From Prolixibacteraceae bacterium (GTDB lineage Bacteria > Bacteroidota > Bacteroidia > Bacteroidales > Prolixibacteraceae), in contig JAFGAF010000517.1 of assembly GCA_016933815.1 (NCBI GenBank), forward strand, positions 1 through 56,968: a stretch of DNA of 56,968 nt, read 5' to 3'. The translations under genes were made by a program, and so were the position numbers. The notes under the pieces are model-generated. The model worked only from the letters and a program-made list of their open reading frames with translations, was not told the DNA's origin and made no database searches. Shown one piece after another: positions 15,821-32,142 of this stretch; within the stretch, counting starts at the first letter, position 1; every line of letters begins with the position of its first letter.

Positions 15821-15850
15821 AAAAAAAACCTGACTAAAGATAGCCAGGTT
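15821..15850 (-). terminator. Terminator closing the ABC-RND operon
   Basis: Minus strand AACCUGGCUA-UCUU-UAGUCAGGUU followed by a U run. Confidence 0.75.
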
Positions 15851-15886: not shown

Positions 15887-16324
15887 TTACTGATTTCCTC
15901 CGCCACGAGGAGCTCCACGCCTTACGGGCTGATTAGGTCCGCCCTGTTGAGCTCTGTCGCGTCGTTGTTGCATACGTTGTTCTTCTAATTCAATGTGCTT
16001 CTTGTATTGTTCATCGGTTAAAACACCTTTCAGTTCCTTGTTCTTTTCTTCGCGAATGGTTTGCATCTTTTCGAAAAATTGCGAACGATCGGCTTCGCCG
16101 GCGTTTTGGAACATTTCGCGCATTTTGTCGCTGTATTTTTTATTCAGCGCTTCAACTTTTTTTGTTTGTTCGGCATTCAAACCCAAATCGTTGGTCATTT
16201 GCTCGGTTTGCCGTTTTACCATTTCTTCAGGGTCGAACTGACCCCCCATACCACCTCCCGGAGGCTGAGCTTTTATAGCTATTGCAGCTAAAAGAACCAA
16301 GGTAAATAATAATATTTTTTTCAT
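15887..16324 (-). CDS. Small secreted helical protein (DUF4890 / Spy-CpxP-like)
   Basis: Signal peptide, MTNDLGLNAEQ and VLTDEQ (LTXXQ-like) motifs, Gly/Arg-rich termini. Confidence 0.75.
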   Translation of the reverse strand: MKKILLFTLVLLAAIAIKAQPPGGGMGGQFDPEEMVKRQTEQMTNDLGLNAEQTKKVEALNKKYSDKMREMFQNAGEADRSQFFEKMQTIREEKNKELKGVLTDEQYKKHIELEEQRMQQRRDRAQQGGPNQPVRRGAPRGGGNQ

Positions 16325-16406
16325 TGTAGTTAAATTTTTGATGTTTTAAAATTGTTAGATTAGATTAATAACCAGAAGTTTAATTCAACTTCGATATTTT
16401 TTTTGA

Positions 16407-17177
16407 TTATCCTAAAAGTTTTTCCCTTTTCTGCAAATTCATTAAAGCAGCCAAAAGAAAAACAACTGCTCCCGAACCCAAAAATATTCGGTTTTTACTG
16501 CTCAAAACGCTCCAAACCATTTCGCTAGTTCCCGAAGGTATGGCATAAGGATTAAAAAACACGTTCCACATCGACTGGGCAATCTCATCGGATAAAACCA
16601 TCAAAATAAAGCCCAGAATGATAATTGTAGCTGCTGTTGCATTTCCCGATCGTAAAACTGTTGATAAAAAGAAAGTTAAAAAGCCCAGAAATGCCAATGG
16701 AAACAATACTTGCAAAACCATTTCGAAAACAGCAAACGATACAAATACATAGCGAATTAAATAAGCCAGTAAAAGCATCACAATAAAAGTAAGAACATAA
16801 ATGAGCATCAAGCGCATAAACCAAACCCTGAAACGGTAATCGGGAATACCAAAAATTATCTCCATTGTACGGGCATCTTTATCGCTTTGAATTCCGAACG
16901 AGGCCGGATAAAATATCAACAAAGCACCAGTTAAAAGCAAAATAGTGTAAACGCCTTGTTCGCTAAGCATTTCGCCATTAAATAAATTAATGCCAATAAT
17001 TAAAAACGATAATACAATGGCGCTAATCAAGAAATAGATAAAACGGTTTCCAAAAACAATTTTCAAATTGTATTTAACCATTACAAAAGCATTCAGTATC
17101 GGCGAAAACCAATTATTCAATGCATTAACGCCTTTAGGACTGCTCATTTTCAATATATTTTCTTGAATTTGTTGCAT
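16407..17177 (-). CDS. ABC-2-type permease-like membrane protein (~6 TM)
   Basis: Amphipathic N-terminal helix, SDKDARTMEIIFGIP coupling-helix-like motif, ~6 hydrophobic segments. Confidence 0.65.
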   Translation of the reverse strand: MQQIQENILKMSSPKGVNALNNWFSPILNAFVMVKYNLKIVFGNRFIYFLISAIVLSFLIIGINLFNGEMLSEQGVYTILLLTGALLIFYPASFGIQSDKDARTMEIIFGIPDYRFRVWFMRLMLIYVLTFIVMLLLAYLIRYVFVSFAVFEMVLQVLFPLAFLGFLTFFLSTVLRSGNATAATIIILGFILMVLSDEIAQSMWNVFFNPYAIPSGTSEMVWSVLSSKNRIFLGSGAVVFLLAALMNLQKREKLLG

Positions 17178-17209
17178 AATTATTTCTTCAGTTTATCAAA
17201 TTATAAACA

Positions 17210-20200
17210 CTAAACAGGTTTGGCCTTTTGCAGCCACAAATAAGCATCTTCGAGATTTGGATCAACACCAAAGGCATTGCTGTGGGGTTTTTGATCAGAA
17301 ATGATTCGCAAACGCACATTATCGCCCTGTTTAGCATGATGGGCTACTACAAATTCCCGAGTGTATTTTTCGAATTCGCTTTCGGGTACTTCCAACTGCC
17401 AAACATGTCCTTTGGCCGAATCGGTCATATTGCGTGGCGAGCCAACATATTGCACACTACCCTTTCGTAATACGGCCAAACGGTTACACGAACTGGCAAT
17501 ATCTTCAATAATGTGAGTCGAAAAAATAACAATACGTTCGCGGCTCAGTTCAACAAGCAGGTTACGGAAACGGATGCGCTCACGAGGGTCGAGGCCGGCT
17601 GTAGGCTCATCGACAACCAGAATGCGGGGCAAATGAAGCAATACCTGGGCAATGCCAATGCGTTGTTTCATACCTCCCGAAAACGAACCAATTTTTTTGT
17701 TCCTGTTTTCCCACATTTTTACGCTCTCAAGTACCTGTTTTACCCTTTCGTTGCGTACTTCGGGAACATTTATCTTTTTCAAAATCGATTGATATTGAAG
17801 ATAATCCCAAGCTGTCATGTTTTCATACATACCAAAATCTTGTGGCAAATAACCAATTAAACCTTGCAGCTCTTCACGCTTTAAATCGGCATCGATGTTG
17901 TTGAACCACACCTTGCCGTAGCTTTGTGTATTGATGCCGCAAATTGCGCGCATTAATGTAGATTTACCTGCACCATTGGGGCCCAGCAAACCGTACATGC
18001 CCTTGCCAATTTCGAGTGTAACTGCATTCAATGCTTTAAACGGCTTTTGCTTTTTACCAATTATTGGTATTGAAAGCACAAAACGATAGATGCCTGCTTT
18101 GAAATCACTGAATTTGCCACTAATGCGGTTAACATTAATTTTTTCGTCGTGAATCTTATTCGAAAAGAAATCTATTGCCAACAAGAAATAAACAAGCACG
18201 ATCAGAATTATTGATAATGCAATATTATCGATTCTGAAATACAAATAAGCCACTGCTGCTAAAGGCGAAAACCAATGCCAAATTGAAAGGGCAATGCTAC
18301 TTGCTCTTTTCATTTTTTGGGTATTATAGGCAAGGTTTTTAAGCATTTTAAATTGATTTTGAGCAAAGAAGTAAATAATAATCATTGCCAAAACAACCCA
18401 AATTGTACTTTCAACATAAAAGAAAGCCATATAGACCAAGAATGCTAAAAGAGGTAATTGCCAGGTAAACGATTTCAGATCGGACAAACGATTAAACTGT
18501 TGACTTTCGCCAAAATGTTCACGCAATTTGATTCCACCATTCCATTCGCGGGCAAATCGTCCTTTTCGGCCGTAAATTTTCACCAAATTTTGTATCCTGA
18601 TAACTATTTCATCATCGGCCGATACAATTGTTTCGCTTGCTTTACGCAGGCTATTCATAATGAACCATACAGCAGCAGGCACCAAAGTAATGAGCAAAAT
18701 AAAGCAAACCATCTGCCAAATAAAGCCATTTATTCCTGTATATATTAAATAGGCTCCAATTGCAAATAAGCTATATTGTAATATTTTCAGCCATAGCTTA
18801 AGGCCTCTGAACCAGGCAAGCGCACTGTGCAAACCAAGATAAAAAGTAGGAATAAATATTAGTGTAAGTACAGTACTGAAGGCCAAGCCACCAATTACAG
18901 TGAGGGCAAACGGAGCGCCAATAACTCCTACGTATTCCGATTTACCCATTGCTAATGGCAACATTGCTACAATTGTTGTAATTGCTGTAATCAATATTGG
19001 CCGCATGCGCGCCAAACCTGCCATTATTAATGCACGTTGCATTCGGTAACCTCTTTTTTGCAATATATTGTTGTAGTCGATTAAAATTATTCCATTATTA
19101 ACAACCACGCCCAATAATATTATAAAACCGGTTAAAGTGTTGGCCGACAGCAGTGTGTTGCCGGTAAAAATCAACATAAACAACGAACCGATTGCGGCCA
19201 GCGGTATCGAAAACATCATTACAAAAGGAGTAGCAAACGATTCAAATACCGAAGCTAAAATCATAAAGATGAGAATAAAAACCATTGCAATCAATGGATA
19301 ATAAGCTGCAAAATCATCTTCATCGTGTATCACCTGAACGGCAATTCCGGCAGGCAGCGGAAGTGAGGCAATTAATTGGTCAACTTCGTTACGTGCAGCT
19401 TCGAGCAAATCTTTGTTTTCGTTAATTTCGCTACTGAAGCTGTAGGTAAGTTCAATTTCTTTTTCCTGATTCAAACGGTTTATACGTGCAATGCCCGAGC
19501 TGAAATATATTCGGGTAATGTCCTGCAATTCGAAAATTCCCCCATCGTTGCTGCTAATTTCGAGTCTTTCGAGATCGTTAAGGCGCATTGGCGGCAGCTC
19601 GGTAATCGTATCGGTACGGATGATTATTTCGTATTCTTCGTTATCTTGTTTGTAGTTGAAGCCCGATTCAATTTCTTTTCTGAAAGCTGACAATTCCGAC
19701 AAAACATTGTTCATTGGAATATTATTTCGACCAAAACTTTCCGAATCGAAATTCAAGTGTACTTCGGGGCGGTTCGATGATTGGTTGCTACGAACCCTTT
19801 CTGTTTCGTCCAAATCGTCGAGATAATATTGAATATCCTCGGCAATTGTTTTCATCAAATCGTAGTTATGGCCTTTAATGAGCACGCGTTCCTCGTTGCT
19901 GCCAATGCCCATCATTCGTTCCATACGTTGAGCCTGACGCATACCACCTCCGCCTGCACCAAATTGTTCGCTAGATGCCGATTGTTCAAAATCGATTTCG
20001 GCATTGCGATCGTGCTTATCCATAATTTTCTTGATCTCGTTTTTCACGCCATCAAAATCGCGGTTTTCGAGCTTCTCAAAATTTTCGTGCAATAAAACGG
20101 TTAAAATAGCCGATTCTTCTTCAATTTGACTGCTAATGCTTTTTTTCTCAACAATTTCCATCAAATCTTTTTCCATTTCGGCAACCAAAGCATCGGTTTT

Positions 20201-21913
20201 TTCAAGACTAGCCCCTGCATCCATGGTAACATAAATCTTAACCTGATCGTTTTCAACCTCTTGCAATGCTTGTGTTTGGGTTGCCAAGCTTATCAACAAA
20301 GTTGCAAAGAAAACCACCACTGCTCCCATAATGGTTGCAATTGGGTTGCGCATGGCAGTTTTAAGCAACAACACATAAACTTGTACCATTCGGTTTCGAA
20401 TCGAAATTTTTTCGAACACAGCAACCGACTGGCGCTTGTTTTGGTTTCGCAATATGAGGTAGGTGATCATTGGTATGAACAGCAGCGCCACCAAAAACGA
20501 TATGAACAAAGTTGAAACAATTGACACACCTATTTGTCGGCCAAAGAGCTGAACAACAATATCATCGGTAAAGAAGAATGGAAGGAATACGCATATAGTG
20601 GTGAGCGTAGCAGCAAAAACCGAACGCCAAACCTCGCGTGTACCGTCAATAACAGCATCCTTAAGCGAGGCGCCTGCACCAGCAAGCCGATAAATGTTTT
20701 CGAGTACAACTACACTGTTATCTATAAGCATTCCAATGGCCAAAGCCATACCTACCAATGTTAAACTGTTAATGGTAATGTTGAAATAATAAAAGAAATT
20801 AAATGCTGCATATACCGAAATTGGAATAGACAATGCAACAACAGTAACCAAACGGATATTCCGAAGGAAAAACCATAGAATTATTACTGCTAAAATCCCT
20901 CCAACCAAAGCCAAATTGATGATTTGGTCGATGTTTTTTTCCATTGTTTCTGCCGAATCGGACTCGATTAACAATTCGACACCAACCCCTGCCAGATTTT
21001 CGTTCAGCTTTTCGATTGCTTCTCGGGTACGGTGCGAAAGGTCGATCAAATTGGCCGTATTGTCGTTGATGAGCATTAAACTAATTACATCGAGACCATT
21101 AACGCGGCTGTACGAAGTTTCCTCTTTCGTTCCGAAAGTAATTGAGGCGATGTCTTTTAGCTTTAAGCCCGAACTTTGGTTAACCACAACGTTGCCAATA
21201 TCCGAAACAGCATTAAACTCGGCCGAAACATTTACCAAATACCGGTTTGTACCTTCAAAAACTTCGCCGGCAAAAGTTCGTTCGTTATAACTGCTTTGCA
21301 ACAATTGCCTTATTCGCGAAGGGCTTAAGTTGTAGGCTTTGGCCACATCGGGGGCAATTTCGATTGTAATTGATTTTTGCCTGCCACCATATACGTTTAC
21401 ACTTGCTATTCCATCAATATTGAGCAATTGATCGCTAATTTCTTCGTCGGTAATGTTACGCAAACGGTCAACTCCACCCTCGCCAATAATCTGTATCGAC
21501 ATAAACTGGTTGGTGGCCGACCTTGTGTCAACTTTATCGACAGTTACATTAAAGTCTTCGGAAATAATTGATTTTGAAGCATTTATTTTTTCCTGCAACC
21601 TTAATTGAGCATATTTAAGGTTAACACCTTCGTTGTAACTAACCTGAATTGTTCCGTTTCGCCGTGTGGCTACCGATGAAATTTCGGCAACCCCATCGAG
21701 CTGTCCAATAATGCCTTCGAGTGGAATAATGGCTTGGTTTTCCATGTAAGCCGGATCGACTTCGATAGAAGCGTTTACCATAACCACCATCATCGGCATT
21801 TCGGGCGTTGGGTACAATTCCATGTTCAGCTTTTTGTAAGATATTACGCCAAGCATTACCATGGAAAGGAAAACCATGCTGATGAGTACTTTTCTTCGAA
21901 TAATAAAATCCAT
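17210..21913 (-). CDS. RND (AcrB/AcrD/AcrF) permease fused to a C-terminal ABC ATPase domain
   Basis: aa ~1-1030 RND (GMLIDNSVVVLENI, FESFATPF, RMRPILIT); C-terminus GPNGAGKST, YLPQDFG, FSGGMKQR, VVDEPTAGLD, STH in one uninterrupted 1567-aa ORF. Confidence 0.92.
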   Translation of the reverse strand: MDFIIRRKVLISMVFLSMVMLGVISYKKLNMELYPTPEMPMMVVMVNASIEVDPAYMENQAIIPLEGIIGQLDGVAEISSVATRRNGTIQVSYNEGVNLKYAQLRLQEKINASKSIISEDFNVTVDKVDTRSATNQFMSIQIIGEGGVDRLRNITDEEISDQLLNIDGIASVNVYGGRQKSITIEIAPDVAKAYNLSPSRIRQLLQSSYNERTFAGEVFEGTNRYLVNVSAEFNAVSDIGNVVVNQSSGLKLKDIASITFGTKEETSYSRVNGLDVISLMLINDNTANLIDLSHRTREAIEKLNENLAGVGVELLIESDSAETMEKNIDQIINLALVGGILAVIILWFFLRNIRLVTVVALSIPISVYAAFNFFYYFNITINSLTLVGMALAIGMLIDNSVVVLENIYRLAGAGASLKDAVIDGTREVWRSVFAATLTTICVFLPFFFTDDIVVQLFGRQIGVSIVSTLFISFLVALLFIPMITYLILRNQNKRQSVAVFEKISIRNRMVQVYVLLLKTAMRNPIATIMGAVVVFFATLLISLATQTQALQEVENDQVKIYVTMDAGASLEKTDALVAEMEKDLMEIVEKKSISSQIEEESAILTVLLHENFEKLENRDFDGVKNEIKKIMDKHDRNAEIDFEQSASSEQFGAGGGGMRQAQRMERMMGIGSNEERVLIKGHNYDLMKTIAEDIQYYLDDLDETERVRSNQSSNRPEVHLNFDSESFGRNNIPMNNVLSELSAFRKEIESGFNYKQDNEEYEIIIRTDTITELPPMRLNDLERLEISSNDGGIFELQDITRIYFSSGIARINRLNQEKEIELTYSFSSEINENKDLLEAARNEVDQLIASLPLPAGIAVQVIHDEDDFAAYYPLIAMVFILIFMILASVFESFATPFVMMFSIPLAAIGSLFMLIFTGNTLLSANTLTGFIILLGVVVNNGIILIDYNNILQKRGYRMQRALIMAGLARMRPILITAITTIVAMLPLAMGKSEYVGVIGAPFALTVIGGLAFSTVLTLIFIPTFYLGLHSALAWFRGLKLWLKILQYSLFAIGAYLIYTGINGFIWQMVCFILLITLVPAAVWFIMNSLRKASETIVSADDEIVIRIQNLVKIYGRKGRFAREWNGGIKLREHFGESQQFNRLSDLKSFTWQLPLLAFLVYMAFFYVESTIWVVLAMIIIYFFAQNQFKMLKNLAYNTQKMKRASSIALSIWHWFSPLAAVAYLYFRIDNIALSIILIVLVYFLLAIDFFSNKIHDEKINVNRISGKFSDFKAGIYRFVLSIPIIGKKQKPFKALNAVTLEIGKGMYGLLGPNGAGKSTLMRAICGINTQSYGKVWFNNIDADLKREELQGLIGYLPQDFGMYENMTAWDYLQYQSILKKINVPEVRNERVKQVLESVKMWENRNKKIGSFSGGMKQRIGIAQVLLHLPRILVVDEPTAGLDPRERIRFRNLLVELSRERIVIFSTHIIEDIASSCNRLAVLRKGSVQYVGSPRNMTDSAKGHVWQLEVPESEFEKYTREFVVAHHAKQGDNVRLRIISDQKPHSNAFGVDPNLEDAYLWLQKAKPV

Positions 21914-21919
21914 AAGCGC

Positions 21920-24900
21920 TTATTCGTTGCTGGTTTTGTTAGTACGGTTAATTGTTAAAACATCGTAAACACATGGTATTACAACAAGGCTAAGTATGGT
22001 TGATGTAATTAAGCCTCCCACTACAGCCCAAGCCATGGGTGAACGTAAATCGGCACTTTCGCCAAAACCAAATGTTAAGGGAAGCAAAGCCAATATTGTA
22101 GTTAAACTGGTCATTACTATTGGCCTGATACGTTGTAAACCTGCATTTATTATAGCATCACGTTTGTTCTGTCCTTCGGCACGCAACTGGTTTATGGTAT
22201 CGACCAAAATTATCGAGTTATTAACAGCAATACCTGCTAACATTATCATTCCTATGTAAGCCATCATGTTAAGCGGCTTTCCAATAATGTAAAAAGTAAC
22301 TATTGCGCCTACCATTGCTAAAGGTATGGTTAATAATATTGAAAATGGATGAACAAGCGATTCGAATTGTGAGGCCATAACCATATAAACCAGAATTACC
22401 GATAATACCAGCGCAAAAGTAAGCCCCGACATCGATTCTTTCCTTTTGATTTCTTCGCCGGCCATACGTATGCGATAATTATGCGGTACCGGAACATCGC
22501 GAAGGCGTTCTTCAAGCGCTTTTACCACATGATCGAAAGCTTCGCCCTCGAGCACATAAGCACTAACTTTACCTACACGGCTTTGATTACTGCGATGTAT
22601 TTCGCGCGGTAATTGCTCGCGGGTAATTGTTGCCAAATCGGTTAAACGGTAGCGACTGTCACCACTGGTAATTTCCATGTCCATCAGTTGTTTAACCGAA
22701 ACATTTGGCTGTTTAATGGTTATATCGCGCATTTCGCCTTCAACTTCGTAACTGCCGGCTTCGAGCCCTTGCAACCTGTTGGTTACTTGTGTGATAATTT
22801 GTTCAACACTTAAATTAAAGTAACCGGCTTGTAACCTGTCAATATGGATATCGATTTCGGGTGCTCCGTTTTCAATAGAACTTTCAACATTAAACAAGCT
22901 GCCCGATTGTAGTGCAATTTCTTTTACCTGTGCAGTTAAACCTGCAATTACATCGTGTTCTTCGCCAACAACTTCAACAATTAAAGGAGCTTCGTTATTG
23001 CCCAAGGTCGATTGCAAACTGCCTTCTTCCTGAATAAAAGCAAAAGCAATATCGGGGTTTTGTTCCATTATGTTGTTGATTGATTGTTCAACAAGGCCAT
23101 ATTGTTGCATGCCTTCGGGCGTAAGGGCAACATACATTGTCGCACTGTTTTCGCTCGATTGGGTAGCACCACCGGCTGTAGTACTTAGCTCTCCTACCCG
23201 AATATAAACCGATTCGATGTAGTTTTCAAGACTACTGCTCATCATGTTTTCGATACTAACCATGGCTGCATTGGTATTTTCCAAAGTGGTACCTTCGGGC
23301 AGTGTATATTCAACCATAAAACTGTTGCTCGACGAGCGTGGCATAAATTCGCTACCAATTTTTGGTACAAGCAAAACCGAAGCACTAACCAAAACTACCG
23401 ATACAATTATAATAAGCCAACGGTGTTTTAATGCTCCCGACAAAATATTCTCGTACCAATTTAACGATATGGTTTTTACGGGTTTAACTTTTTTATTACC
23501 AAATATTTTGCTTACCAAAACCGGAATTACCAAAATGGCAACAACCAACGACGAAAGCAATGCAAAAGCTACGGTCCAGGCCATATCTTTGAACAATTCG
23601 CCCGAAGCGCCCTGCAAGTAAACAATTGGTAAAAAAACCACAATTGTTGTGAGGGTCGATGCCGTAATGGCACCACCAACTTCGGCCGCCCCATCGATGG
23701 CCGATTGGAAAACACTTTTGCCCCTCTCGATGTGACGATAAATATTTTCCATAACAATTATGGCATTATCGACCAACATACCGGCACCAAGAGCCAAACC
23801 GCCAAGGGTCATCACATTAAGTGTTAATCCCCTGAAATACATCATTGTAAACGTAGCTATTATTGAAACCGGAATGGCAATACTTATCACCAATGTAGAA
23901 TTCAATCGGCGCAAGAAAACAAAAAGCACAACCACTGCCAATAAAATACCAATTAAGGCCGATTGCCTTACTTCTTTTATGGCTCCACCAATAAAATTCC
24001 CCTGATTTTTAACAATGGTAAACTCGTAACCCGGAAGTGCTTTTTTAATTGATTCGAGCGAAGATGTAATATTTTGAACTGCTTTTACAGTATTGTAACG
24101 AGGTTCTTTGTAAATTGAGAGTCCAATACAACGGCTTCCGTTTAAAGTTACCATTGTTTCAGGATCTTTATTTTTTACCGACACGTTTGCTACATCGCTT
24201 AAATACACAGGAACATTACGCGATGAACCATCGTTTAAGCTTTCGGTTTTCATCCCAACAATTAAATTCTCGAGATCGACAGGTGTTGCAATCATGCCAA
24301 CACCTTTAACACTGTAGTTTACACCGTCTTCCTCGATTGTGCCTCCCGAAACATTTCGATTATAACTTTGAATACGTTGCCCAACATCGGAAGCAGTTAG
24401 CCCAAACGCATCGAGCAAATATGGGTTAGTTTCAACAACAATTTCGGCAGTTTCGTGGCCTGCAAGTGTAACATCGGCAATACCTTCGAGCCTAATGAGC
24501 TCATTACGGATGTAGTTTTCGGCTACTTTACGAACTTCGTCGAGATTCAGCAGGTTTTCGTTATCGAGAGCGATAATCATTACTGGAGTTGAGTTCGGAT
24601 CGTATTGCGAGATATTGATTGCATCGATACCACTGTTTTGTGCATAGGTACTCATGGCTTTTTGCAAGTCGAGAAATGCTTCGTCCATGTCCTTTCCCCA
24701 CGAATATTCAACGGTAATGGTTGCCGAACCAACACGCGTAACCGAATTTACGTTAACCACATCGGATTGGCGAATTGCTTGTGACTCGATGTTGGTAACA
24801 AAAATATTTTCAATTTCGTCGGGTGGACGGTTGCCTGCATCAATTTCGATATAAAGACGCGGATTGTTCAACTGAGGGAACAAATCGATGCCCAATCTCG

Positions 24901-24991
24901 AAAGTGAAATATAGCCGGTTAGCAAAACCGCCAACACCAACATGAGTACGGTAACCGGGTAATTTACTGAGAATTTTGTAATTTGCTTCAT
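21920..24991 (-). CDS. RND (AcrB/AcrD/AcrF) efflux permease
   Basis: GMLVDNAIIVMENI, ASTLTTIVVFLP, QFESLVHPF, RIRPIVMTSLTT; 1023 aa. Confidence 0.95.
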   Translation of the reverse strand: MKQITKFSVNYPVTVLMLVLAVLLTGYISLSRLGIDLFPQLNNPRLYIEIDAGNRPPDEIENIFVTNIESQAIRQSDVVNVNSVTRVGSATITVEYSWGKDMDEAFLDLQKAMSTYAQNSGIDAINISQYDPNSTPVMIIALDNENLLNLDEVRKVAENYIRNELIRLEGIADVTLAGHETAEIVVETNPYLLDAFGLTASDVGQRIQSYNRNVSGGTIEEDGVNYSVKGVGMIATPVDLENLIVGMKTESLNDGSSRNVPVYLSDVANVSVKNKDPETMVTLNGSRCIGLSIYKEPRYNTVKAVQNITSSLESIKKALPGYEFTIVKNQGNFIGGAIKEVRQSALIGILLAVVVLFVFLRRLNSTLVISIAIPVSIIATFTMMYFRGLTLNVMTLGGLALGAGMLVDNAIIVMENIYRHIERGKSVFQSAIDGAAEVGGAITASTLTTIVVFLPIVYLQGASGELFKDMAWTVAFALLSSLVVAILVIPVLVSKIFGNKKVKPVKTISLNWYENILSGALKHRWLIIIVSVVLVSASVLLVPKIGSEFMPRSSSNSFMVEYTLPEGTTLENTNAAMVSIENMMSSSLENYIESVYIRVGELSTTAGGATQSSENSATMYVALTPEGMQQYGLVEQSINNIMEQNPDIAFAFIQEEGSLQSTLGNNEAPLIVEVVGEEHDVIAGLTAQVKEIALQSGSLFNVESSIENGAPEIDIHIDRLQAGYFNLSVEQIITQVTNRLQGLEAGSYEVEGEMRDITIKQPNVSVKQLMDMEITSGDSRYRLTDLATITREQLPREIHRSNQSRVGKVSAYVLEGEAFDHVVKALEERLRDVPVPHNYRIRMAGEEIKRKESMSGLTFALVLSVILVYMVMASQFESLVHPFSILLTIPLAMVGAIVTFYIIGKPLNMMAYIGMIMLAGIAVNNSIILVDTINQLRAEGQNKRDAIINAGLQRIRPIVMTSLTTILALLPLTFGFGESADLRSPMAWAVVGGLITSTILSLVVIPCVYDVLTINRTNKTSNE

Positions 24992-25005
24992 GCCAATTTT
25001 ACTTT

Positions 25006-26058
25006 CTATTTTTGTACCCTTACCTTAGCCCTGTTCGATAGCATTTGATAGCCTTCGATTACCAATTTTTCGCCGGGTTCGAGGCCGCTTACAATTTCAA
25101 CTTCGGTATCGGTTTCGATGCCGGTGTTTACCCTTTTTTCAACAGCTGTATTGCGTTCAACAACATATACTACTTTACCTCTTCGTTTATTTTGAACCAA
25201 TTCGCGGTCGACAACTATTGCGCTGTCGCGACGTTCAACAACCACTTCGGCCTTAACAAACATTCCAGGGCGCATTTTAAGTTCGGGGTTCGAAATGCTC
25301 ATAACACCTTTAAATGTGCGCGATGCTTCGTTAATTGCAGGCGAAAGCTGTGTAATAACAGCCCTAAGCGTATCATCTTTAAGGTTATAATTGCTTACGT
25401 AAGCTTCTTGTCCGGCTTGGATGGTAGTAATAAATTTCTCGGGGAAATCGGTTTGCATAATCAATTTGCTGTAATCCATCATGCTTGCTACTTTAGTTCC
25501 GGAACTGATTTTTACATCGGGCGTAAAATATGGCAAATCAACAATTACCCCGTCGAACGGAGCTGCTACCTGCAGTTTTTTCATTTGCAACTCGGCATTT
25601 TCGAAATCGTAACGAGTGTTGATATAGCTAAGTTCAGCATTTTGCATCTCACGCTGTGTAACACCACCCTTTTCGAACAACGATTGCTGTTTGTCGTATT
25701 CTTGTTTGGCATTTTCCAAATCGAGTTTTTTGGCTTCAATTCGTATGCTCAATTCGTATTCAGGATTATCGAGTTCAACCAAAACTTCGCCTTTATAAAC
25801 TTTGTCGCCCAAGCGATAGGGTTTACCTGTACGTTTGTTGGTGTTTAAGCGGTATTTGCCCTCCGACTCGGTATTCAAATCGGCACTGGCACAAGGACTA
25901 ACGGTTCCGTTAATACTTGTGGTATTGAAAATTGTTTTTTTAACAACATCGGTTACCCTAACAGGTACACTTACATCGGCTCCTTGAGTAGGTGCCTGAT
26001 TCTGACAGCTTGCAAAAAAGGCAACAGCCAATATTAAAGTCCAACTTAGCTTCTTCAT
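25006..26058 (-). CDS. RND periplasmic adaptor (MFP) lipoprotein
   Basis: Lipobox FFASC, coiled-coil hairpin, APFDGVI, MRPGMFV, EIVSGLEPGEKLV. Confidence 0.93.
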   Translation of the reverse strand: MKKLSWTLILAVAFFASCQNQAPTQGADVSVPVRVTDVVKKTIFNTTSINGTVSPCASADLNTESEGKYRLNTNKRTGKPYRLGDKVYKGEVLVELDNPEYELSIRIEAKKLDLENAKQEYDKQQSLFEKGGVTQREMQNAELSYINTRYDFENAELQMKKLQVAAPFDGVIVDLPYFTPDVKISSGTKVASMMDYSKLIMQTDFPEKFITTIQAGQEAYVSNYNLKDDTLRAVITQLSPAINEASRTFKGVMSISNPELKMRPGMFVKAEVVVERRDSAIVVDRELVQNKRRGKVVYVVERNTAVEKRVNTGIETDTEVEIVSGLEPGEKLVIEGYQMLSNRAKVRVQK

Positions 26059-26070
26059 AATGTGGTATTA

Positions 26071-27552
26071 TTAATCGATTTGAAATTCAGATGAATACTC
26101 TGACGGAACAATAGAAGTATTACTTTCAAAATCCCACAGAGTTTGTATTTTAAGGTTTAAAAATTCGAGTTTATAACTAATTAATGCATTGGTTAATTCG
26201 TTTCGTTTCGACGATAATTGGTTTTGGTACAAACTGAGATCCATACTGGTAAGATCGCCGTTCTGGTATTTTTCGACATTCAGCTCGTAAGTACGACGTG
26301 CATTTTCGACACTTTTTTCAGCAATTTCGATCTGATACACCAAGTTTTGCATATTGCGATATATTTCGCGGATATTAAGTTGTATCGATATTTTTTCGTT
26401 GTCGAAATTCAATTCCTGCATTTGCAACGATGCTTCGGCAGCCTTGAGGTTCGAACGTTTTTGCCCCCAATCGTAAACAGGTATTTCAAATGATATTTCG
26501 AATTGTTGTTGATCGGTTGGCGATTGGTAAATATTTCCAATTTGTTCGTTATCGCCGACCAAACCAACTGCCAACGAAACATTTCCTTTAAATTCGTTGT
26601 TTGCATCTACCCTTATGAGGTTAAACTGTGCATTTTCGATATCAATTTCGCGCTGGCGAAGTTCCATTCGTTGCTTTAGTGCATAATCGATAGCATCGGT
26701 CATATCAACATCAACAGTTTTTACATCAACATTAGCCAACACATCTACATCATTATCCAAATCGATTCCAATGGTTTGTTTTAGTTGATCTTTGGCATTA
26801 TCGAGCGATACTTGTGCGTTGTAAACCGACGAGCGTGCATTGGCAAGGTTCAATTCAGCCTGCCATAATTCTTCTTGTGCAGCCAGTCCGGCATCTACTT
26901 TGTTCTTTATAATTTCGTGCGATTTTTCTTGATTGGTCAACTCTTCTTTACTAATAAAAAGGCTTTGTTGACGCTGATAAACCTGATAAAACAATTGGCT
27001 TACCTGTCGCTCGATTGTTAATTTTTGCATTGCATAGCTCAACAAGGCATTTTCGAGGTCGAGCTCAAGCTCACGCAGGTTCATTTTTGTACGATTGTAA
27101 GTAAAAATAGGCTGATCGAACTGTAAACGCACATTGTTGCTGAACGAGTTGATTGCCGGGTTGTTGTTGAGCGAGTTACTTTGAAAACCAAAGCGATTAA
27201 CCAAGCTTAGCGTTCCGTCGGTTGCTTTAATGGGCTGTACAACACTAAATGTGCCGCTCGATCCCATGTTTTCGTAATTTCGCCACTCCTGAAAATCCTG
27301 CGAATACTCACGGGTGTTGTTGTAAGTAAAAGGGCTTACATTTAAAAAGAATTTTGATTTTAGTCCAGCCCTCTGTGCGTTGAGTGATTCGCGGCTTCGT
27401 AAAAGGTTAAGTTTCGACTGTACAATCGAAGGGCTGTTTTCGTAAGCAATTTCGAGAGTACGTTCGAGTGTTAGTAAATCCTGAGCACTGATTGTTAAGG
27501 CATTAAATCCCAGCAGGATAAACATAACAAAAAAGTAAGATTTTGTTCTCAT
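26071..27552 (-). CDS. TolC-family outer membrane efflux protein
   Basis: Signal peptide, LTLERTLEIAYENSP, QPIF / IPVYDWG strands, OEP helical repeats. Confidence 0.9.
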   Translation of the reverse strand: MRTKSYFFVMFILLGFNALTISAQDLLTLERTLEIAYENSPSIVQSKLNLLRSRESLNAQRAGLKSKFFLNVSPFTYNNTREYSQDFQEWRNYENMGSSGTFSVVQPIKATDGTLSLVNRFGFQSNSLNNNPAINSFSNNVRLQFDQPIFTYNRTKMNLRELELDLENALLSYAMQKLTIERQVSQLFYQVYQRQQSLFISKEELTNQEKSHEIIKNKVDAGLAAQEELWQAELNLANARSSVYNAQVSLDNAKDQLKQTIGIDLDNDVDVLANVDVKTVDVDMTDAIDYALKQRMELRQREIDIENAQFNLIRVDANNEFKGNVSLAVGLVGDNEQIGNIYQSPTDQQQFEISFEIPVYDWGQKRSNLKAAEASLQMQELNFDNEKISIQLNIREIYRNMQNLVYQIEIAEKSVENARRTYELNVEKYQNGDLTSMDLSLYQNQLSSKRNELTNALISYKLEFLNLKIQTLWDFESNTSIVPSEYSSEFQID

Positions 27553-27576
27553 GCTATTTAAATTAGTTATATCATT

Positions 27577-30500
27577 TTAACGTTGCAGAGTCCATTTAAC
27601 TGCATCGGCAACAATTCTGTTTGCTCCGCCTTTATCGGTAAGTACCACTTCCGACGAATCGGACGAAAAATAAAACGATCCCAACAAGTTCCAACCTGTT
27701 TCAAAGTTCTTCACTTCGATAGTTATTTCTTCGTTACCGTCGTCGTGTTGTATATTATAAACGTAAGCTCCTTCGGGTTCTGAATTTCCCCTACCCCTTC
27801 CCGGAGGGCCAAAACGTCGTTGTTCATTTAAATAAACATAAATATCGTAATACCCCGGGCTTGGTAAATTTTGTTTCCAAACAGCTGTTTTACTGCCATT
27901 ACCCGAACGTACAACCATTGCAGAGTGTTCTATTTCGCCAAAATAATCGCTGTTGGCTACCAAGCTCCAGGTTGACGGTGCTTGTCCAAATCCTTCACCC
28001 ACAAACTCGCTTGGATTGTCTTTTTTCTTCCGTTGCTCAACCCATTGCCTTAAAGGGTTGTTCATTGAAGGATCGTTAATTGTAAACCCTTCATCTTTAT
28101 TGTCAACAATAAGTTCATCGGGCGAACGCATTACAACAGGGCTTTCAGTAACATTCTCGTATTCATAGGTAACAACTTTATCTATTTTTTCTGATCGTAA
28201 GCCAAAAGTCATTGAACTCGACGGAATATTTTCCGAAAGCATGGTATTAAACGTTAGCGATCGAGGCATCTCATTCAGTGCAATCTGAATCTCTTTAGTT
28301 TGTTTAGCTTCAATTAAGAATATGCGCTCTTCGGGCTCAGGCATCATAAAACCACCGCCCATAAAACCACCACCGCCACCACGTCGGCCTTCGCCAAGCA
28401 TGAACGAGAATTTAACCAAACCATCAACATTGTTGTAGTTTGTAACCTTGGTTCGAACCAGAAAAACCGCTTGCGATTTATCAATTGTTTCAATCACATC
28501 GACACTGCCTAAACCAAAAGCAGGCAATTTATTAACTGTGTACCAATCGGTTAATATATTTTCAATTTGAATTCCCTGATCAGAATTCAAAGTTTTCACC
28601 AAATCGTCGTATTTTATTTCGACATAACTGTTGTTGTATAAATAATCGAGTATATATTGATTAAAATCAAATCCGCTCACTTGTTTTTCCATCCAGGTAA
28701 GTAAATACGACCCCTTTGCCTTCAGCACATTATTTACAATTTTTCGATCGGTTTCTTCCGAAATAATTTGCTTTAAGCTTCTTTCTTTAAGTTGCAAATT
28801 TGCTTGTTCGGTTTCGCCTATGCCTGTCATACGGGCCATAAACATTGCACGCGGGTTATCGCTTCCCTGCATCAGGTAACTTTCGAAAGCATAATTTAAT
28901 ACAGGGCAAACATCGGAAGTAATGTAATTAACAAAGTAAAAATAATTAGGAAAAAGATTAAATGGGTTACTCTTTGTTTGCATCGATGAGTTGAAACTCA
29001 TACTTGCATCCTGCTCGGTGAATGTTGACCGCAAAAAATTGGCAAATACACGTGCCTGAATTTCTTTTTGACTTAAACCTTCTTTGTTTCTTTCACTTTC
29101 ACGTCGAATACGACGCTCCGACGAAGCAAAGTCGGCTTGCGTTACATTGTAACCCCATTCGGGGAAATTTATAACTTGTGGCTGAACATTTGCTAAAGTT
29201 GATGTCCATGAATGAGGCAACGAAGCAAACTGTGCAGGTGCTTCAACCAAGGTAAATTGCTGATAGGGATAAAACAATCCCAAAGGTCTTTCATAATCGT
29301 CGATGAACTCAAGTAAAAGAGAAGGAAGAGTATCGGTAAGTTCCGACACATATTTTGAAAAGTAGTTGTGACCACTTATGTGGGCAAGTGTAATTTGAAT
29401 ACCCTCAATTTCAATCTTTTTCTCCTCAAATTGTGCAATATTTAATGACAATTGTGGTAGCGGATCGCGAATTTCGAAACGATATTCAATGCTGTCGGTT
29501 GTGGTGCGAATGCCTTGTGAAACAGGAAGCATGCCCGGCTTCGATTTTACCGTGAGGTCAAAATTGGTAAATTGTTGCCTGAATATAGCAGGTCGGCCAG
29601 GGTCATATGCCATGCCGGGTATCGGATACCAAAGAATTTCTTTATTGAGCAACACATAATTCTTTGAGTAAAAACCGTAATGGCGATCGGTACGTAATGT
29701 CATTGCACGTTCAATACCAAAGAATTCTTCATCGGGGTTGTCCAAATAAGCAACATTCATGTTTGGAATACCCGAATAATGAACTGTAATTGTAATTTCT
29801 TGTTCGGGTTGCAAAACACTCGATGGAAATACTTTAAGCATTAAGCCATTTTGTTTAAATTTTAGTTGTTCATTATTTGCTTCAACTTTTGAAACCACCA
29901 GGTCGGGGTTTAAACTAAACAGTAATGTATCGATTACTGTTTGATGATTATTAAACAGTGTTATTGTAGAACGGGCATTCATTTGCTCGTTGTATTCGAT
30001 ATATATTGATGCTTTTTGCATTTGTGGCACAAGGTTATCGAAATTAGCCGACGCTGTTGAAAAAAATTCAGCACGTTGTTTTATTGTTGTATTTTTCTGA
30101 TTAACAATCGAATACAATCCTGTTATTGCAACCATTGTACACACCAAACTGCCTATGGCAATTACCCACTTCGATGTTGGTTTGTTGGGCAAGCGGTTAA
30201 GTTGCCATGTGGTAAACATTATTAATCCTAAACCAAGCAAGAAATACGATAAACGCTGAAACACAACAGTTTCGGGTGCAGCAAAACCAACAATATCGGA
30301 ATAAGGCATTGGCATTGCAAAAACCATGTAATCGAAAACATAGTTGGCTTTTTCGCCTAAATAAAAAAGAATTAGCGCAATGTAACCAAGCAACAAGATG
30401 AATGTAACGGGTTGATTTTTAATAATTGTCATTAAAGCATACGACAATCCTATAATGAAAATCAAAGATGGAATGCTTATTAAAACAAAGTAAAGAAGAA

Positions 30501-30936
30501 TGGGTATCAACCTAAATTCAACCTGTTTCGATATGAACAAAAAAATTGAAACAATTGCAATAACAATAATATTCAACACAATAAAGACACTAAGCAGTGC
30601 AATAGTTTTTCCGCTAATGTATTCAAAATTGGTCATTGGTCGTGTAAACAACACTTCCGATGTGTTCAGTTTTTTATCGCGTTTCAGAAAATCAGTAGCT
30701 AAAAACACAGCAATAACCGATTGAAAAATATTTAACAAAAACATTGCTGAATAAATTAGCGACGAAGGCATGCTCCTGAACATCCAGGTAAAAGGATTAT
30801 TATCGAAAAATGTTGCACCGCTGAACATGCTGACAACAAAAATCGAAAGAATGGAGAAAATACGGAAGAACCAACTTCTGAAAAGAATTTTCCTTTCGAA
30901 CTTTGCAATTGATTGAATATTGTATAAACTATTCAT
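27577..30936 (-). CDS. ABC-2 permease fused to a degenerate M1-aminopeptidase-like ectodomain and a C-terminal golvesin/xanthan-lyase-CBD-like domain
   Basis: N-terminal ~7 TMs with RDKKLNTSEVLFTRP...GK; M1-like WYP, YPYQQFTLVEAP, KGSYLL but no HEXXH; C-terminal IVDNKDEGF...GYYDIYVY...WNLLGSF...IVADAVKW. Confidence 0.75.
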   Translation of the reverse strand: MNSLYNIQSIAKFERKILFRSWFFRIFSILSIFVVSMFSGATFFDNNPFTWMFRSMPSSLIYSAMFLLNIFQSVIAVFLATDFLKRDKKLNTSEVLFTRPMTNFEYISGKTIALLSVFIVLNIIVIAIVSIFLFISKQVEFRLIPILLYFVLISIPSLIFIIGLSYALMTIIKNQPVTFILLLGYIALILFYLGEKANYVFDYMVFAMPMPYSDIVGFAAPETVVFQRLSYFLLGLGLIMFTTWQLNRLPNKPTSKWVIAIGSLVCTMVAITGLYSIVNQKNTTIKQRAEFFSTASANFDNLVPQMQKASIYIEYNEQMNARSTITLFNNHQTVIDTLLFSLNPDLVVSKVEANNEQLKFKQNGLMLKVFPSSVLQPEQEITITVHYSGIPNMNVAYLDNPDEEFFGIERAMTLRTDRHYGFYSKNYVLLNKEILWYPIPGMAYDPGRPAIFRQQFTNFDLTVKSKPGMLPVSQGIRTTTDSIEYRFEIRDPLPQLSLNIAQFEEKKIEIEGIQITLAHISGHNYFSKYVSELTDTLPSLLLEFIDDYERPLGLFYPYQQFTLVEAPAQFASLPHSWTSTLANVQPQVINFPEWGYNVTQADFASSERRIRRESERNKEGLSQKEIQARVFANFLRSTFTEQDASMSFNSSMQTKSNPFNLFPNYFYFVNYITSDVCPVLNYAFESYLMQGSDNPRAMFMARMTGIGETEQANLQLKERSLKQIISEETDRKIVNNVLKAKGSYLLTWMEKQVSGFDFNQYILDYLYNNSYVEIKYDDLVKTLNSDQGIQIENILTDWYTVNKLPAFGLGSVDVIETIDKSQAVFLVRTKVTNYNNVDGLVKFSFMLGEGRRGGGGGFMGGGFMMPEPEERIFLIEAKQTKEIQIALNEMPRSLTFNTMLSENIPSSSMTFGLRSEKIDKVVTYEYENVTESPVVMRSPDELIVDNKDEGFTINDPSMNNPLRQWVEQRKKKDNPSEFVGEGFGQAPSTWSLVANSDYFGEIEHSAMVVRSGNGSKTAVWKQNLPSPGYYDIYVYLNEQRRFGPPGRGRGNSEPEGAYVYNIQHDDGNEEITIEVKNFETGWNLLGSFYFSSDSSEVVLTDKGGANRIVADAVKWTLQR

Positions 30937-30946
30937 TTTATTGGTT

Positions 30947-31843
30947 TTACAGGCTATTTAGAACTGATTCGGTTTTGTGTTCCATGTAATATACATAGGC
31001 ATGTTCGAGGGTTGGATCGATTGCTGAGTGCTGGTATCCGTTAGCATGTTCGGCTACAACTTCGAGATCCCATCCTCCAATTGACGGAACAGTGGATATA
31101 ACATTAAAATTTACATTTATTTCGTCGAATTGCTCGTGAGTGGCATGTATGCGCCATACTTTACCTTTTGCTTCGTTTATGAGCGCTTCGGGTGAGCCAT
31201 CGAAAACAATACGACCACTACGGAGCAAAACTGCATGGTTACAGGTGCTTGAAATATCGCCAACTATGTGTGTACTTAAAATGATTATTACATCGCGGGT
31301 GCTTATTTTTGTTAGTAGATTTCTGAAACGGATACGCTCATCGGGGTCGAGGCCGGTTGTAGGTTCATCAACAATAATGATGCGGGGGTCGCCAATAAGC
31401 GCCTGCGCAATGCCTAAGCGTCGTTTCATCCCGCCCGATAAATTATTGGCATACCTTTCGCGTACTTCATAAAGACCAACTTCTTCGAGCATTTCGTCAA
31501 CATTATCGCGCCGTTTACGATTATCTTTCAAACCACCCAAACGAGCCGAATAGTCTAAAAATTCCCAGGTTTTTAATTTTGGGAAAGCACTGAAATCTTG
31601 TGGCAGATATCCGGTAAACGAACGAATTGCCTTGCGGTTTTTACTTAAAGGCATGCCATTTACAAAAACCTCGCCCGTACTTGCGTTCATTAAAGAAACT
31701 AATATACGCATCAAAGTTGATTTTCCGGCACCGTTTGAGCCCAAAAGACCAAACATTCCGTTTTCAATTTCAATATTTACCGAGTTAAGAGCTTTATGCC
31801 CGTTACTATAAATCTTTGTGAGGTTTTGAATTGATATGTTCAC
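30947..31843 (-). CDS. ABC transporter ATP-binding protein (ABC-2 partner type)
   Basis: GSNGAGKST, YLPQDF, LSGGMKRR, IVDEPTTGLD, STH; probable GTG start at 31843 (track extends to 31912). Confidence 0.93.
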   Translation of the reverse strand: MNISIQNLTKIYSNGHKALNSVNIEIENGMFGLLGSNGAGKSTLMRILVSLMNASTGEVFVNGMPLSKNRKAIRSFTGYLPQDFSAFPKLKTWEFLDYSARLGGLKDNRKRRDNVDEMLEEVGLYEVRERYANNLSGGMKRRLGIAQALIGDPRIIIVDEPTTGLDPDERIRFRNLLTKISTRDVIIILSTHIVGDISSTCNHAVLLRSGRIVFDGSPEALINEAKGKVWRIHATHEQFDEINVNFNVISTVPSIGGWDLEVVAEHANGYQHSAIDPTLEHAYVYYMEHKTESVLNSL

Positions 31844-31917: not shown

Positions 31918-31951
31918 AAAAAAAACCTCCGGATCTGGAAAAATCCGGAGG
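31918..31951 (-). terminator. Intrinsic terminator upstream of the operon's first gene
   Basis: Minus strand CCUCCGGAU-UUUUCCAG-AUCCGGAGG followed by U8. Confidence 0.75.
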
Positions 31952-32092: not shown

Positions 32093-32142
32093 GGGGTGAA
32101 ACAGAAACTAGGAGGGGTGAAATCACATATAATGGGGTGAAA
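32093..32142. promoter_or_regulatory. Three GGGGTGAAA direct repeats (candidate LytTR operator)
   Basis: Perfect 9-mers at 32093, 32114, 32134 (periods 21 and 20 bp) between the LytTR gene and the divergent operon. Confidence 0.65.

What the first reader, a model, noticed from the sequence alone, without database searches (positions are those of the whole stretch)
15887..31843. Candidate hybrid ABC-RND trans-envelope export machine, with an ATPase covalently fused to an RND subunit
Seen: eight closely spaced co-directional genes ending in one terminator: ABC ATPase, 1119-aa ABC-2 permease/ectodomain fusion, TolC, MFP, RND-A, RND-B::ATPase (1567 aa, no stop or frameshift), a 256-aa ABC-2 permease and a small secreted protein. 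The count is two TMDs plus two NBDs, enough for one heterodimeric ABC transporter, with the second NBD attached to the RND. Both NBDs have intact Walker A, Q-loop, signature, Walker B and H-loop, and share the C-terminal extension (KG.VW...P.LE.AY). Established: RND pumps (AcrB, heteromeric MdtBC) are proton-driven, and ABC tripartite pumps (MacAB-TolC, HlyBD-TolC) contain no RND. Inference: the ABC module is tethered to the RND-MFP-TolC channel, either feeding it substrate or energising it with ATP. I do not know of a characterised example.
Basis: partly seen in the sequence, partly recalled or inferred. Interest (0 to 1): 0.92.

Follow-up and report, generated by a model that had tools for sequence, protein, structure and literature searches.

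The report
RND pump fused to ABC ATPase
One real, conserved bacterial gene joins a proton-pump-type efflux subunit (RND) to an intact ATP-burning ABC motor domain inside a fixed seven-gene set, which likely builds a single export machine from two transporter types normally taught as alternatives.

Summary
Confirmed. Window 17210-21913 (-) is one 1567-aa frame: full RND permease plus ABC ATPase, spanned without gaps by a contig from an independent study. Seven genes (free ATPase, large ABC-2 permease, TolC, MFP, RND-A, RND-B::ATPase, small ABC-2 permease) keep this order in 41 of 49 Bacteroidota genomes examined; 7 are contig-cut and one keeps all seven in four places. A distant unnamed phylum has the same seven parts shuffled (16 of 21 loci). 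In 301 Bacteroidales genomes the fusion and small permease occur in the same 41. Catalytic ATPase motifs are kept in 59 of 59 fused domains (Q-loop 58). Corrections: the eighth gene is lineage-specific; the ATPase's first strand is split off by four membrane helices that some lineages lack; the large permease carries a zinc-less M1-peptidase ectodomain. Best reading (0.55): a heterodimeric type-V-like ABC transporter tethered to a two-subunit RND-MFP-TolC pump, handing over substrate. Direct ATP drive of the RND is less likely. Substrate, binding and energetics are untested. Seven novelty searches found no description. The scan found this before on other DNA.

The parts
30947..31843 (-). Free ABC ATPase (NBD1), 298 aa from GTG; DrrA/GldA-like, with C-terminal extension
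   Evidence: PF00005 E 7e-30; best NCBIfam hits GldA and drrA, both below cut-off; motifs kept in 49 of 49 homologues
27577..30936 (-). Large ABC-2 permease, 1119 aa: membrane domain (~1-278), predicted periplasmic M1-aminopeptidase-like ectodomain without HExxH (~279-905), C-terminal Golvesin_C / xanthan-lyase-like beta domain (988-1115)
   Evidence: Pfam (Golvesin_C 36 of 36, ABC2_membrane_2 25 of 36, Peptidase_M1 12 of 36); profile hits to M1 peptidases and xanthan lyase 6f2p; hhalign 97.7% to an ABC-2/M1 fusion with intact zinc motif; no HExxH in 53 of 54, the one hit lies outside the site
26071..27552 (-). TolC-family outer-membrane factor, 493 aa
   Evidence: PF02321 x2, E 4.5e-45
25006..26058 (-). 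Membrane-fusion / periplasmic adaptor protein of RND type, 350 aa
   Evidence: TIGR01730 RND_mfp 181.9 bits, above cut-off 94.9
21920..24991 (-). RND-A permease, 1023 aa, unfused
   Evidence: PF00873 E 1e-214; closest solved sequence MdtB 9lyq, E 2e-90; D408, R954, T961 invariant in 55 of 55
17210..21913 (-). RND-B::ABC ATPase fusion, 1567 aa (whole gene)
   Evidence: single frame; PF00873 + PF00005; independent contig
18833..21910 (-). RND domain of the fusion (aa 2-1027)
   Evidence: D398 59 of 59, R969 and T976 58 of 59
18635..18796 (-). Two extra predicted membrane helices linking RND TM12 to the ATPase (aa ~1040-1093); absent in the G441-phylum form
   Evidence: AF2 model pLDDT 77; hydropathy and linker lengths
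18572..18601 (-). First beta-strand of the fused ATPase with the A-loop tyrosine Y1114, separated from the core
   Evidence: Y invariant in 59 of 59; model aligns residues 240-704 to 4yer 1-305, Z 24.1, rmsd 5.1, 265 aligned
18146..18475 (-). Four predicted membrane helices inserted inside the ATPase between strand 1 and the Walker A strand (aa ~1147-1256); two helices in two genomes, none in the G441 phylum
17213..18040 (-). Core of the fused ATPase (NBD2) and C-terminal extension (aa 1292-1567)
   Evidence: Walker A K, Walker B E, H-loop 59 of 59; Q-loop 58 of 59; pN about 0.10-0.13 against pS 0.65-0.84 in three relatives
16407..17177 (-). Small ABC-2-type permease, 256 aa (homologues mostly ~235 aa, real start may be later)
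   Evidence: family match 9 of 47 to ABC2_membrane_2; same 41 of 301 genomes as the fusion
15887..16324 (-). Small predicted secreted DUF4890 / Spy-CpxP-like protein, 145 aa; accessory, not conserved in the unit
   Evidence: PF16231 above cut-off; weak CpxP hit; Atlas DUF4890/LTXXQ; downstream only in close relatives, divergently upstream in 2 loci, no match in the other loci
15827..15850 (-). Terminator-like hairpin with U-run after the last gene
   Evidence: pattern match only

Best explanation
The seven conserved genes likely encode one trans-envelope exporter in which a heterodimeric ABC-2 (type V-like) transporter is held, through its RND-fused ATPase, against a two-subunit RND-MFP-TolC pump. 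Shown: the fusion, the seven-gene set, intact ATPase motifs, an ATPase fold that closes around the insertion in the model. Inferred step 1: the fused and the free ATPase dimerise under the large and small permeases, giving one ABC transporter per RND-B. Inferred step 2: ATP hydrolysis flips or lifts a hydrophobic or amphipathic substrate (peptide, lipopeptide or lipid) to the periplasmic leaflet, where the zinc-less M1-like ectodomain binds rather than cleaves it. Inferred step 3: the neighbouring RND-A/RND-B heterotrimer takes it from the membrane surface and expels it through MFP and TolC, probably still using its reduced D-R-T proton path. The ATPase would power the ABC half, not the RND; the fusion fixes stoichiometry and proximity. 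The substrate is a guess.
For: Co-retention: identical order in 41 of 49 Bacteroidota genomes, 7 more cut by contig ends; G567, a single-contig genome, keeps all seven in four distant places; a distant phylum has the same seven parts in another order in 16 of 21 loci; in 301 Bacteroidales genomes the fusion and small permease hit the same 41, the large permease those plus G746, whose contig ends after the MFP. The ABC half is a complete unit on its own: RND-free relatives have ATPase + one two-TMD/M1 protein with intact zinc motif (L034) or ATPase + TMD/M1 protein + a ~240-aa membrane protein (L036, L037). The tether varies from six extra helices to four to none while the fusion and motifs stay, which fits a leash better than a rigid power coupling. 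Fused ATPases form one side of a branch (SH-aLRT 89, quick tree). Precedent for ABC type V plus RND in one pathway: DrrABC and MmpL7 (PMC11539658, passages).
Against: No experiment on any member was found. Both RNDs lack the D408 and K940 equivalents of the AcrB relay, so proton drive is not assured. No cargo or biosynthetic gene is conserved in the 3-4 kb flanks examined, so hand-over of one substrate is not shown. One relative (G022) has a stop inside the fused ATPase, one (L138) an in-frame loss of about 210 aa in the RND, and a second fusion copy stands alone in G466. The profiles used were built from many of the positive genomes, so only the negatives are an independent test, and kin are not independent.
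Confidence: 0.55

Rival explanations
1. ATP-only machine: the RNDs are a passive scaffold and conduit. The ABC half supplies all energy and the RND porter domains only pass substrate to MFP-TolC, as suggested for MmpL7 with DrrABC.
For: D408- and K940-equivalents are replaced in all 59 RND-B (one gap) and 55 RND-A; PMC11539658 states that MmpL7 lacks the canonical relay and likely scaffolds DrrABC, without direct evidence.
Against: The D407-, R971- and T978-equivalents stay invariant or nearly so in both RNDs; the same D-N/no-K pattern is in 9 of 21 other RNDs without a fused ATPase, though one of these has unfused ABC-2 genes next to it.
Confidence: 0.18
2. ATP-driven RND: the fused ATPase (with the free one, or with a second RND-B in the trimer) drives the RND's rotation directly, replacing or supplementing the proton motive force.
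For: Covalent link right after TM12, length from TM12 to strand 1 fixed at 78 aa in 39 of 39 Bacteroidota and 50-52 aa in 20 of 20 of the other phylum; reduced relay; a stand-alone second fusion gene in G466.
Against: Two ABC permeases are co-retained with the fusion and would otherwise lack a second ATPase partner count; the ATPase belongs to the family that serves ABC-2/M1 permeases; the membrane part of the tether is dispensable.
Confidence: 0.1
3. Co-located but separate jobs: the fusion is an assembly or regulatory leash. The ABC half acts on its own substrate or senses one (flux sensor) and gates the RND pump; nothing is handed over.
For: The ABC half exists without any RND; orphan extra large-permease copies in four genomes; no cargo gene nearby.
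Against: Within Bacteroidales neither half of this subfamily was found without the other in 301 genomes, apart from one contig-cut case; the ectodomain lost its zinc motif in the RND-linked family while RND-free L034 keeps it, as expected if expulsion replaced cleavage.
Confidence: 0.16
4. Assembly or annotation artefact (read-through or chimeric contig).
For: The source genome is a fragmented assembly (584 contigs, 82% complete).
Against: Independent contig with 0 gaps across the junction; fusions down to 30% identity; 41 of 301 genomes with no stop inside the linker match.
Confidence: 0.01

Closest known systems
MdtABC-TolC (heteromeric HAE-1 RND tripartite pump)
   Same: Two RND paralogues, an RND-type adaptor and a TolC; MdtB (9lyq) is the closest solved sequence to RND-A. 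PMC8277102 names MdtBC as a rare heterotrimer (passage).
   Different: No ATPase domain, no ABC permeases; here both RNDs lack the D408/K940 equivalents and score far below the MdtB/MdtC cut-offs.
DrrABC + MmpL7 + LppX (PDIM export, Mycobacterium)
   Same: A heterodimeric type V ABC transporter and an RND-superfamily protein needed in one export path; physical association proposed without direct evidence (PMC11539658, passages). drrA is the second-best NCBIfam hit of the free ATPase.
   Different: No fusion, one ATPase gene (homodimer), MmpL-type not AcrB-type RND, no MFP or TolC, no M1-like ectodomain, sits in its cargo's biosynthetic cluster.
LanFEG / NisFEG immunity transporters
   Same: Two different ABC-2-type membrane subunits over an ATPase dimer, expelling a membrane-active peptide, with unequal roles for the two subunits (bioRxiv 10.1101/2025.10.09.681468, abstract).
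   Different: One ATPase gene; LanF's E-loop is replaced by a normal Q-loop here (58 of 59, 49 of 49); no RND, MFP, TolC or ectodomain.
Uncharacterised ABC-2 permease / M1 aminopeptidase fusions
   Same: The large permease is homologous to the second TMD plus M1 domain of such a protein (hhalign 97.7%); their ATPases are the nearest unfused relatives fetched; Atlas neighbours are of this kind.
   Different: Zinc motif lost, Golvesin_C domain added in Bacteroidota, TMDs split, ATPase duplicated with one copy fused to an RND.
MacAB-TolC and HlyBD-TolC (ABC tripartite pumps)
   Same: ATPase, adaptor and TolC in one export system.
   Different: Their ABC protein itself docks the adaptor; no RND. 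Here the permeases are ABC-2 type and the adaptor is RND type.

Membership tests
HAE-1 RND tripartite pump (AcrAB-TolC / MdtABC) | Full ACR_tran permease with RND-type adaptor and TolC | tested here: met
HAE-1 RND tripartite pump (AcrAB-TolC / MdtABC) | Proton relay D407, D408, K940 with R971, T978 (numbers from PMC8277102) | tested here: not met
   D407, R971, T978 equivalents kept; D408 and K940 equivalents replaced in both RNDs; positions taken from alignment columns shared with DD/K-type RNDs
HAE-1 RND tripartite pump (AcrAB-TolC / MdtABC) | One energised inner-membrane transporter, no nucleotide-binding domain | tested here: not met
   PF00005 fused to RND-B; ABC permeases co-retained
HAE-1 RND tripartite pump (AcrAB-TolC / MdtABC) | Trimer, proton-driven transport | not testable with these tools
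   needs biochemistry; the trimer exceeds the folding limits
Type V / ABC-2 heterodimeric ABC exporter (DrrABC, LanFEG) | Two ABC-2-type membrane domains | tested here: met
   25 of 36 large and 9 of 47 small permeases match ABC2_membrane_2 at E<=0.01; the window's own matches are below Pfam's cut-off or absent
Type V / ABC-2 heterodimeric ABC exporter (DrrABC, LanFEG) | Catalytically complete nucleotide-binding domains | tested here: met
   fold match Z 24.1 to 4yer
Type V / ABC-2 heterodimeric ABC exporter (DrrABC, LanFEG) | 2 TMD : 2 NBD complex formed from these chains | tested here: inconclusive
   gene count fits; see Tried and rejected
LanFEG specifically | E-loop in place of Q-loop (abstract) | tested here: not met
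   Q in 58 of 59 fused and 49 of 49 free ATPases
M1 zinc aminopeptidase | M1-like fold | tested here: met
   profile hits to several M1 structures, best E 1e-4; hhalign 97.7%; by sequence profile only, no model of the ectodomain was folded
M1 zinc aminopeptidase | HExxH zinc motif | tested here: not met
   absent in 53 of 54, the one match lies outside the site
MacAB-TolC / type I secretion | MacB/FtsX or type IV permease as the only inner-membrane transporter | tested here: not met
   no such Pfam or NCBIfam match for either permease; two RNDs present

The most novel reading that the evidence does not exclude
A fourth class of tripartite exporter: a seven-protein machine in which an ABC transporter and an RND pump are covalently tethered and work in series on one substrate, or in which ATP replaces the proton motive force for an AcrB-fold pump. 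It is old (one likely origin, several phyla) and includes an ABC ATPase whose fold tolerates a four-helix membrane insertion after its first strand.
Probability: 0.75. Interest if true: 0.9.

Novelty: categorically new. Interest (0 to 1): 0.8.

Why it matters
Tripartite pumps are described as having one energised inner-membrane transporter of the ABC, RND or MFS family (PMC8277102, abstract). A conserved polypeptide that joins two of these would be a new architecture. It offers a hard-wired, culturable model (Marinifilum species carry it) for the open question of how an ABC transporter and an RND protein cooperate, raised but not settled for DrrABC and MmpL7, and a direct test of whether an AcrB fold with a reduced relay runs on protons or on ATP. 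The parts are known families; the novelty is the assembly, and it rests on genomics until the complex is isolated.

Tried and rejected
Complex prediction (small permease 30-256 + large permease 1-250 + fusion 1046-1567): no verdict; score 0.34, a control with chain 2 replaced scored 0.47; not evidence either way. Single-sequence fold of residues 862-1567 failed (pLDDT 42); the alignment-based one was used. Fold searches were dominated by the ATPase, so the six extra helices were not tested for a known fold. No RNA holder listed; expression untested. No PDB sequence match for the small permease profile or for the large permease alone. No fusion among plasmids: 0 of 29 matching records covered 80% of the query. 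Flank census found no conserved cargo gene. Upstream hairpin/U-run in 12 of 37 leaders, no shared sequence, no shuffle control: not pursued. LytTR neighbour not conserved beside the operon in the loci examined. The tree is the quick version; the careful search did not finish, no clade test was run, free ATPases are unresolved (support 37). Possible split forms P0170, P0171, P0173: P0171 is labelled partial, P0173 is on a 2.3-kb contig, P0170 (three 377-aa members) was not resolved; the 'shorter' protein search was not run, so split forms are not excluded. Rows dropped before counts: L029 (duplicate of L108) and L107 (fetched on the wrong side; replaced by L170). Literature: novelty searches and the ABC-2/M1 search gave listings with no paper on this system; the library lacks most subscription journals, TCDB was not available, and no supplements were read.
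Full report
Observation. The eight ORFs are on the - strand at the stated places with 6-82 bp gaps. Window 17210-21913 translates to 1567 aa without a stop and carries ACR_tran at 2-1027 and ABC_tran at 1296-1439. RND-A, an RND-type adaptor (TIGR01730 above cut-off), TolC and a free ABC ATPase are plain hits. A terminator-like hairpin follows the last gene, though such patterns were no more frequent than in shuffles. GC is even across the region, 0.37-0.42.

The fusion is real. A contig from another study, of a strain differing at 307 letters, covers 17482-22775 with no gap (run X7); a contig of the possible source run also spans it. A search with residues 1020-1567 gave 120 listed hits at 52-93% identity, all with both Pfam domains; 114 of the 121 sequences including the query exceed 1450 aa. 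Representative search reached full-length fusions at about 30% overall identity. Names given by sources: Prolixibacteraceae, Marinifilum, Mangrovibacterium, Rikenellaceae, KSB1, Latescibacterota, Calditrichota, Porphyromonadaceae. JGI's automatic labels already name both domains; that is annotation, not description. Frequency: 41 of 301 genomes of the order, none with a stop in the linker match; 4 of 401 in a phylum-wide sample; 22 of 24 same-family relatives match at E<=1e-100; in an unnamed distant phylum 22 of 35 genomes have a 1429-1501-aa frame ending in this ATPase and one more a short, probably cut frame. Exceptions: G022 has a stop just after the signature motif; L138 lacks about 210 aa of the RND in frame.

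The unit is seven genes. In Bacteroidota the order ATPase, large permease, TolC, MFP, RND-A, RND-B::ATPase, small permease is complete in 41 of 49 genomes examined (34 of 42 loci, six more, one); seven loci are cut by contig ends; G567, a one-contig genome, has the genes in four places hundreds of kb apart and keeps all seven. In the distant phylum the order is MFP, ATPase, small permease, RND-A, large permease, RND-B::ATPase, TolC, complete in 16 of 21 loci; three are contig-cut, one is a lone second copy, one is unresolved. In the same 301-genome sample the small permease occurs in exactly the 41 fusion genomes and the large one in those plus G746, where the contig ends after the MFP and the rest was not found. 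These profiles were built largely from the positive genomes, and relatives are not independent, so the weight lies on the 259 joint negatives, the shuffled order and G567. The small eighth gene (DUF4890, Spy/CpxP-like) follows the operon only in close relatives.

Anatomy of the fusion. An alignment-based model of residues 862-1567 (pLDDT 77, pTM 0.56) shows RND TM8-12, two more helices, a strand at 1105-1114, four hydrophobic helices, then the ATPase core. Structural alignment pairs model residues 240-704 with residues 1-305 of the ABC ATPase 4yer (Z 24.1, rmsd 5.1, 265 aligned), so the detached first strand folds back into the domain in the model; its A-loop tyrosine is invariant in 59 of 59. 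The extra helices number six here, four in two genomes and none in the distant phylum, always even, which would keep the ATPase cytoplasmic. Walker A lysine, Walker B glutamate and H-loop are invariant in 59 of 59 fused domains, the Q-loop in 58; all motifs hold in 49 of 49 free ATPases. Against three relatives the fused ATPase has pN 0.10-0.13 at pS 0.65-0.84, as constrained as the RND, the linker 0.32-0.34. In a quick tree the 40 fused ATPases are one side of a branch (support 89): one origin is compatible, not proven.

The ABC half. The large permease matches ABC2_membrane_2, Peptidase_M1 and Golvesin_C. It aligns (97.7%) to the second membrane domain and M1 domain of an RND-free ABC-2/M1 fusion that keeps its zinc motif; that motif is replaced here and absent in 53 of 54. 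RND-free loci also exist with ATPase, a TMD/M1 protein and a ~240-aa membrane protein (L036, L037). So the ABC half is a pre-existing module whose ATPase was likely duplicated, one copy becoming fused to an RND, while the ectodomain lost catalysis (inference). Extra lone copies of the large permease in four operon-bearing genomes hint at exchangeable ectodomains.

The RND half. Using AcrB numbering from PMC8277102 (passages), both RNDs keep the D407, R971 and T978 equivalents and lack D408 and K940. This is not peculiar to the hybrid: 9 of 21 other RNDs fetched from seven such genomes share the pattern, one of them beside unfused ABC-2 genes. The pattern neither shows ATP drive nor guarantees proton drive.

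Mechanism. Best reading (0.55): a tethered two-stage exporter, ABC first, RND-MFP-TolC second. Rivals: RND as passive conduit with ATP only (0.18); separate jobs or sensing with a leash (0.16); ATPase driving the RND directly (0.10); artefact (0.01). The first three share the claim of one physical assembly, which rests on genomics. No cargo gene is conserved nearby, so the substrate (peptide, lipopeptide or lipid) is inferred only from the families involved.

Known systems and literature. Closest are MdtABC-TolC for the RND half, DrrABC with MmpL7 for ABC-RND cooperation (PMC11539658, passages read: all three drr genes and mmpL7 needed for PDIM export, association proposed without direct evidence) and NisFEG for the heterodimeric ABC half (bioRxiv 10.1101/2025.10.09.681468, abstract and outline only). 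It works like a combination of these and fails a defining test for each. Searches were read as listings; PMC8277102 (passages from the first 300,000 of 747,818 characters) and PMC5028390 (passages) did not describe such a fusion in what I saw. No supplements were read; transporter inventories in supplements or subscription journals could mention it. That LytTR proteins bind spaced direct repeats, and the labels A-loop, Q-loop and type V topology, are recalled knowledge. Earlier scan notes report the same system in other genomes; they are not counted as support.

Verdict. Observation confirmed; interpretation partly supported; novelty categorical at the level of architecture, with function untested; interest 0.8.

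Noticed in passing
window 32093-32142 (- strand): Three 9-bp direct repeats TTTCACCCC spaced 20-21 bp apart between the operon and a divergent membrane-anchored LytTR gene (32241-33077); resembles a LytTR binding site (recalled). Only such pair in the genome by the pattern used; not found in 36 other operon leaders.
   Followed up: partly
window 31926-31951 (- strand): Strong hairpin (-17.4 kcal/mol for the folded segment) plus U-run about 80 nt upstream of the first gene's GTG, on the operon's strand; could be an attenuator or an insulator. Similar features in 12 of 37 leaders, without shared sequence or control.
   Followed up: partly
L182:1-7078 (G466:C8): An unrelated RND-MFP-TolC set with an unfused ABC ATPase and ABC-2 permease directly upstream on the same strand, and a D-N/no-K relay: a possible independent ABC-2 + RND operon without fusion.
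   Followed up: no
L193, L194, L195, L196 (G651, G668, G559, G583): Lone extra copies of the large permease/pseudo-peptidase gene in genomes that also hold the operon; the G559 copy has a stop.
   Followed up: partly
L171:1662-5936 (G466:C97): Lone second RND::ATPase fusion gene, 45% identical to the G441 reference, in a genome with a complete operon elsewhere.
   Followed up: partly
L167, L168, L169 and G567:C1:2346615-2347304: Operon broken into four pieces in a single-contig genome with all seven genes kept.
   Followed up: yes
L199:6604-11319 (G022): Fusion with a TGA just after the ATPase signature motif: pseudogene or sequencing error.
   Followed up: partly
RND-A alignment, window residue 925: 14 of 55 RND-A have Asp beside the K940-equivalent position, a possible substitute proton site.
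   Followed up: no
L123 and L127: A distant homologue (31%) of the small DUF4890 gene lies upstream of the operon on the opposite strand.
   Followed up: no
P0170 cluster: Three 377-aa proteins that begin within the membrane insertion and lack ATPase strand 1: possible split or frameshifted form.
   Followed up: no
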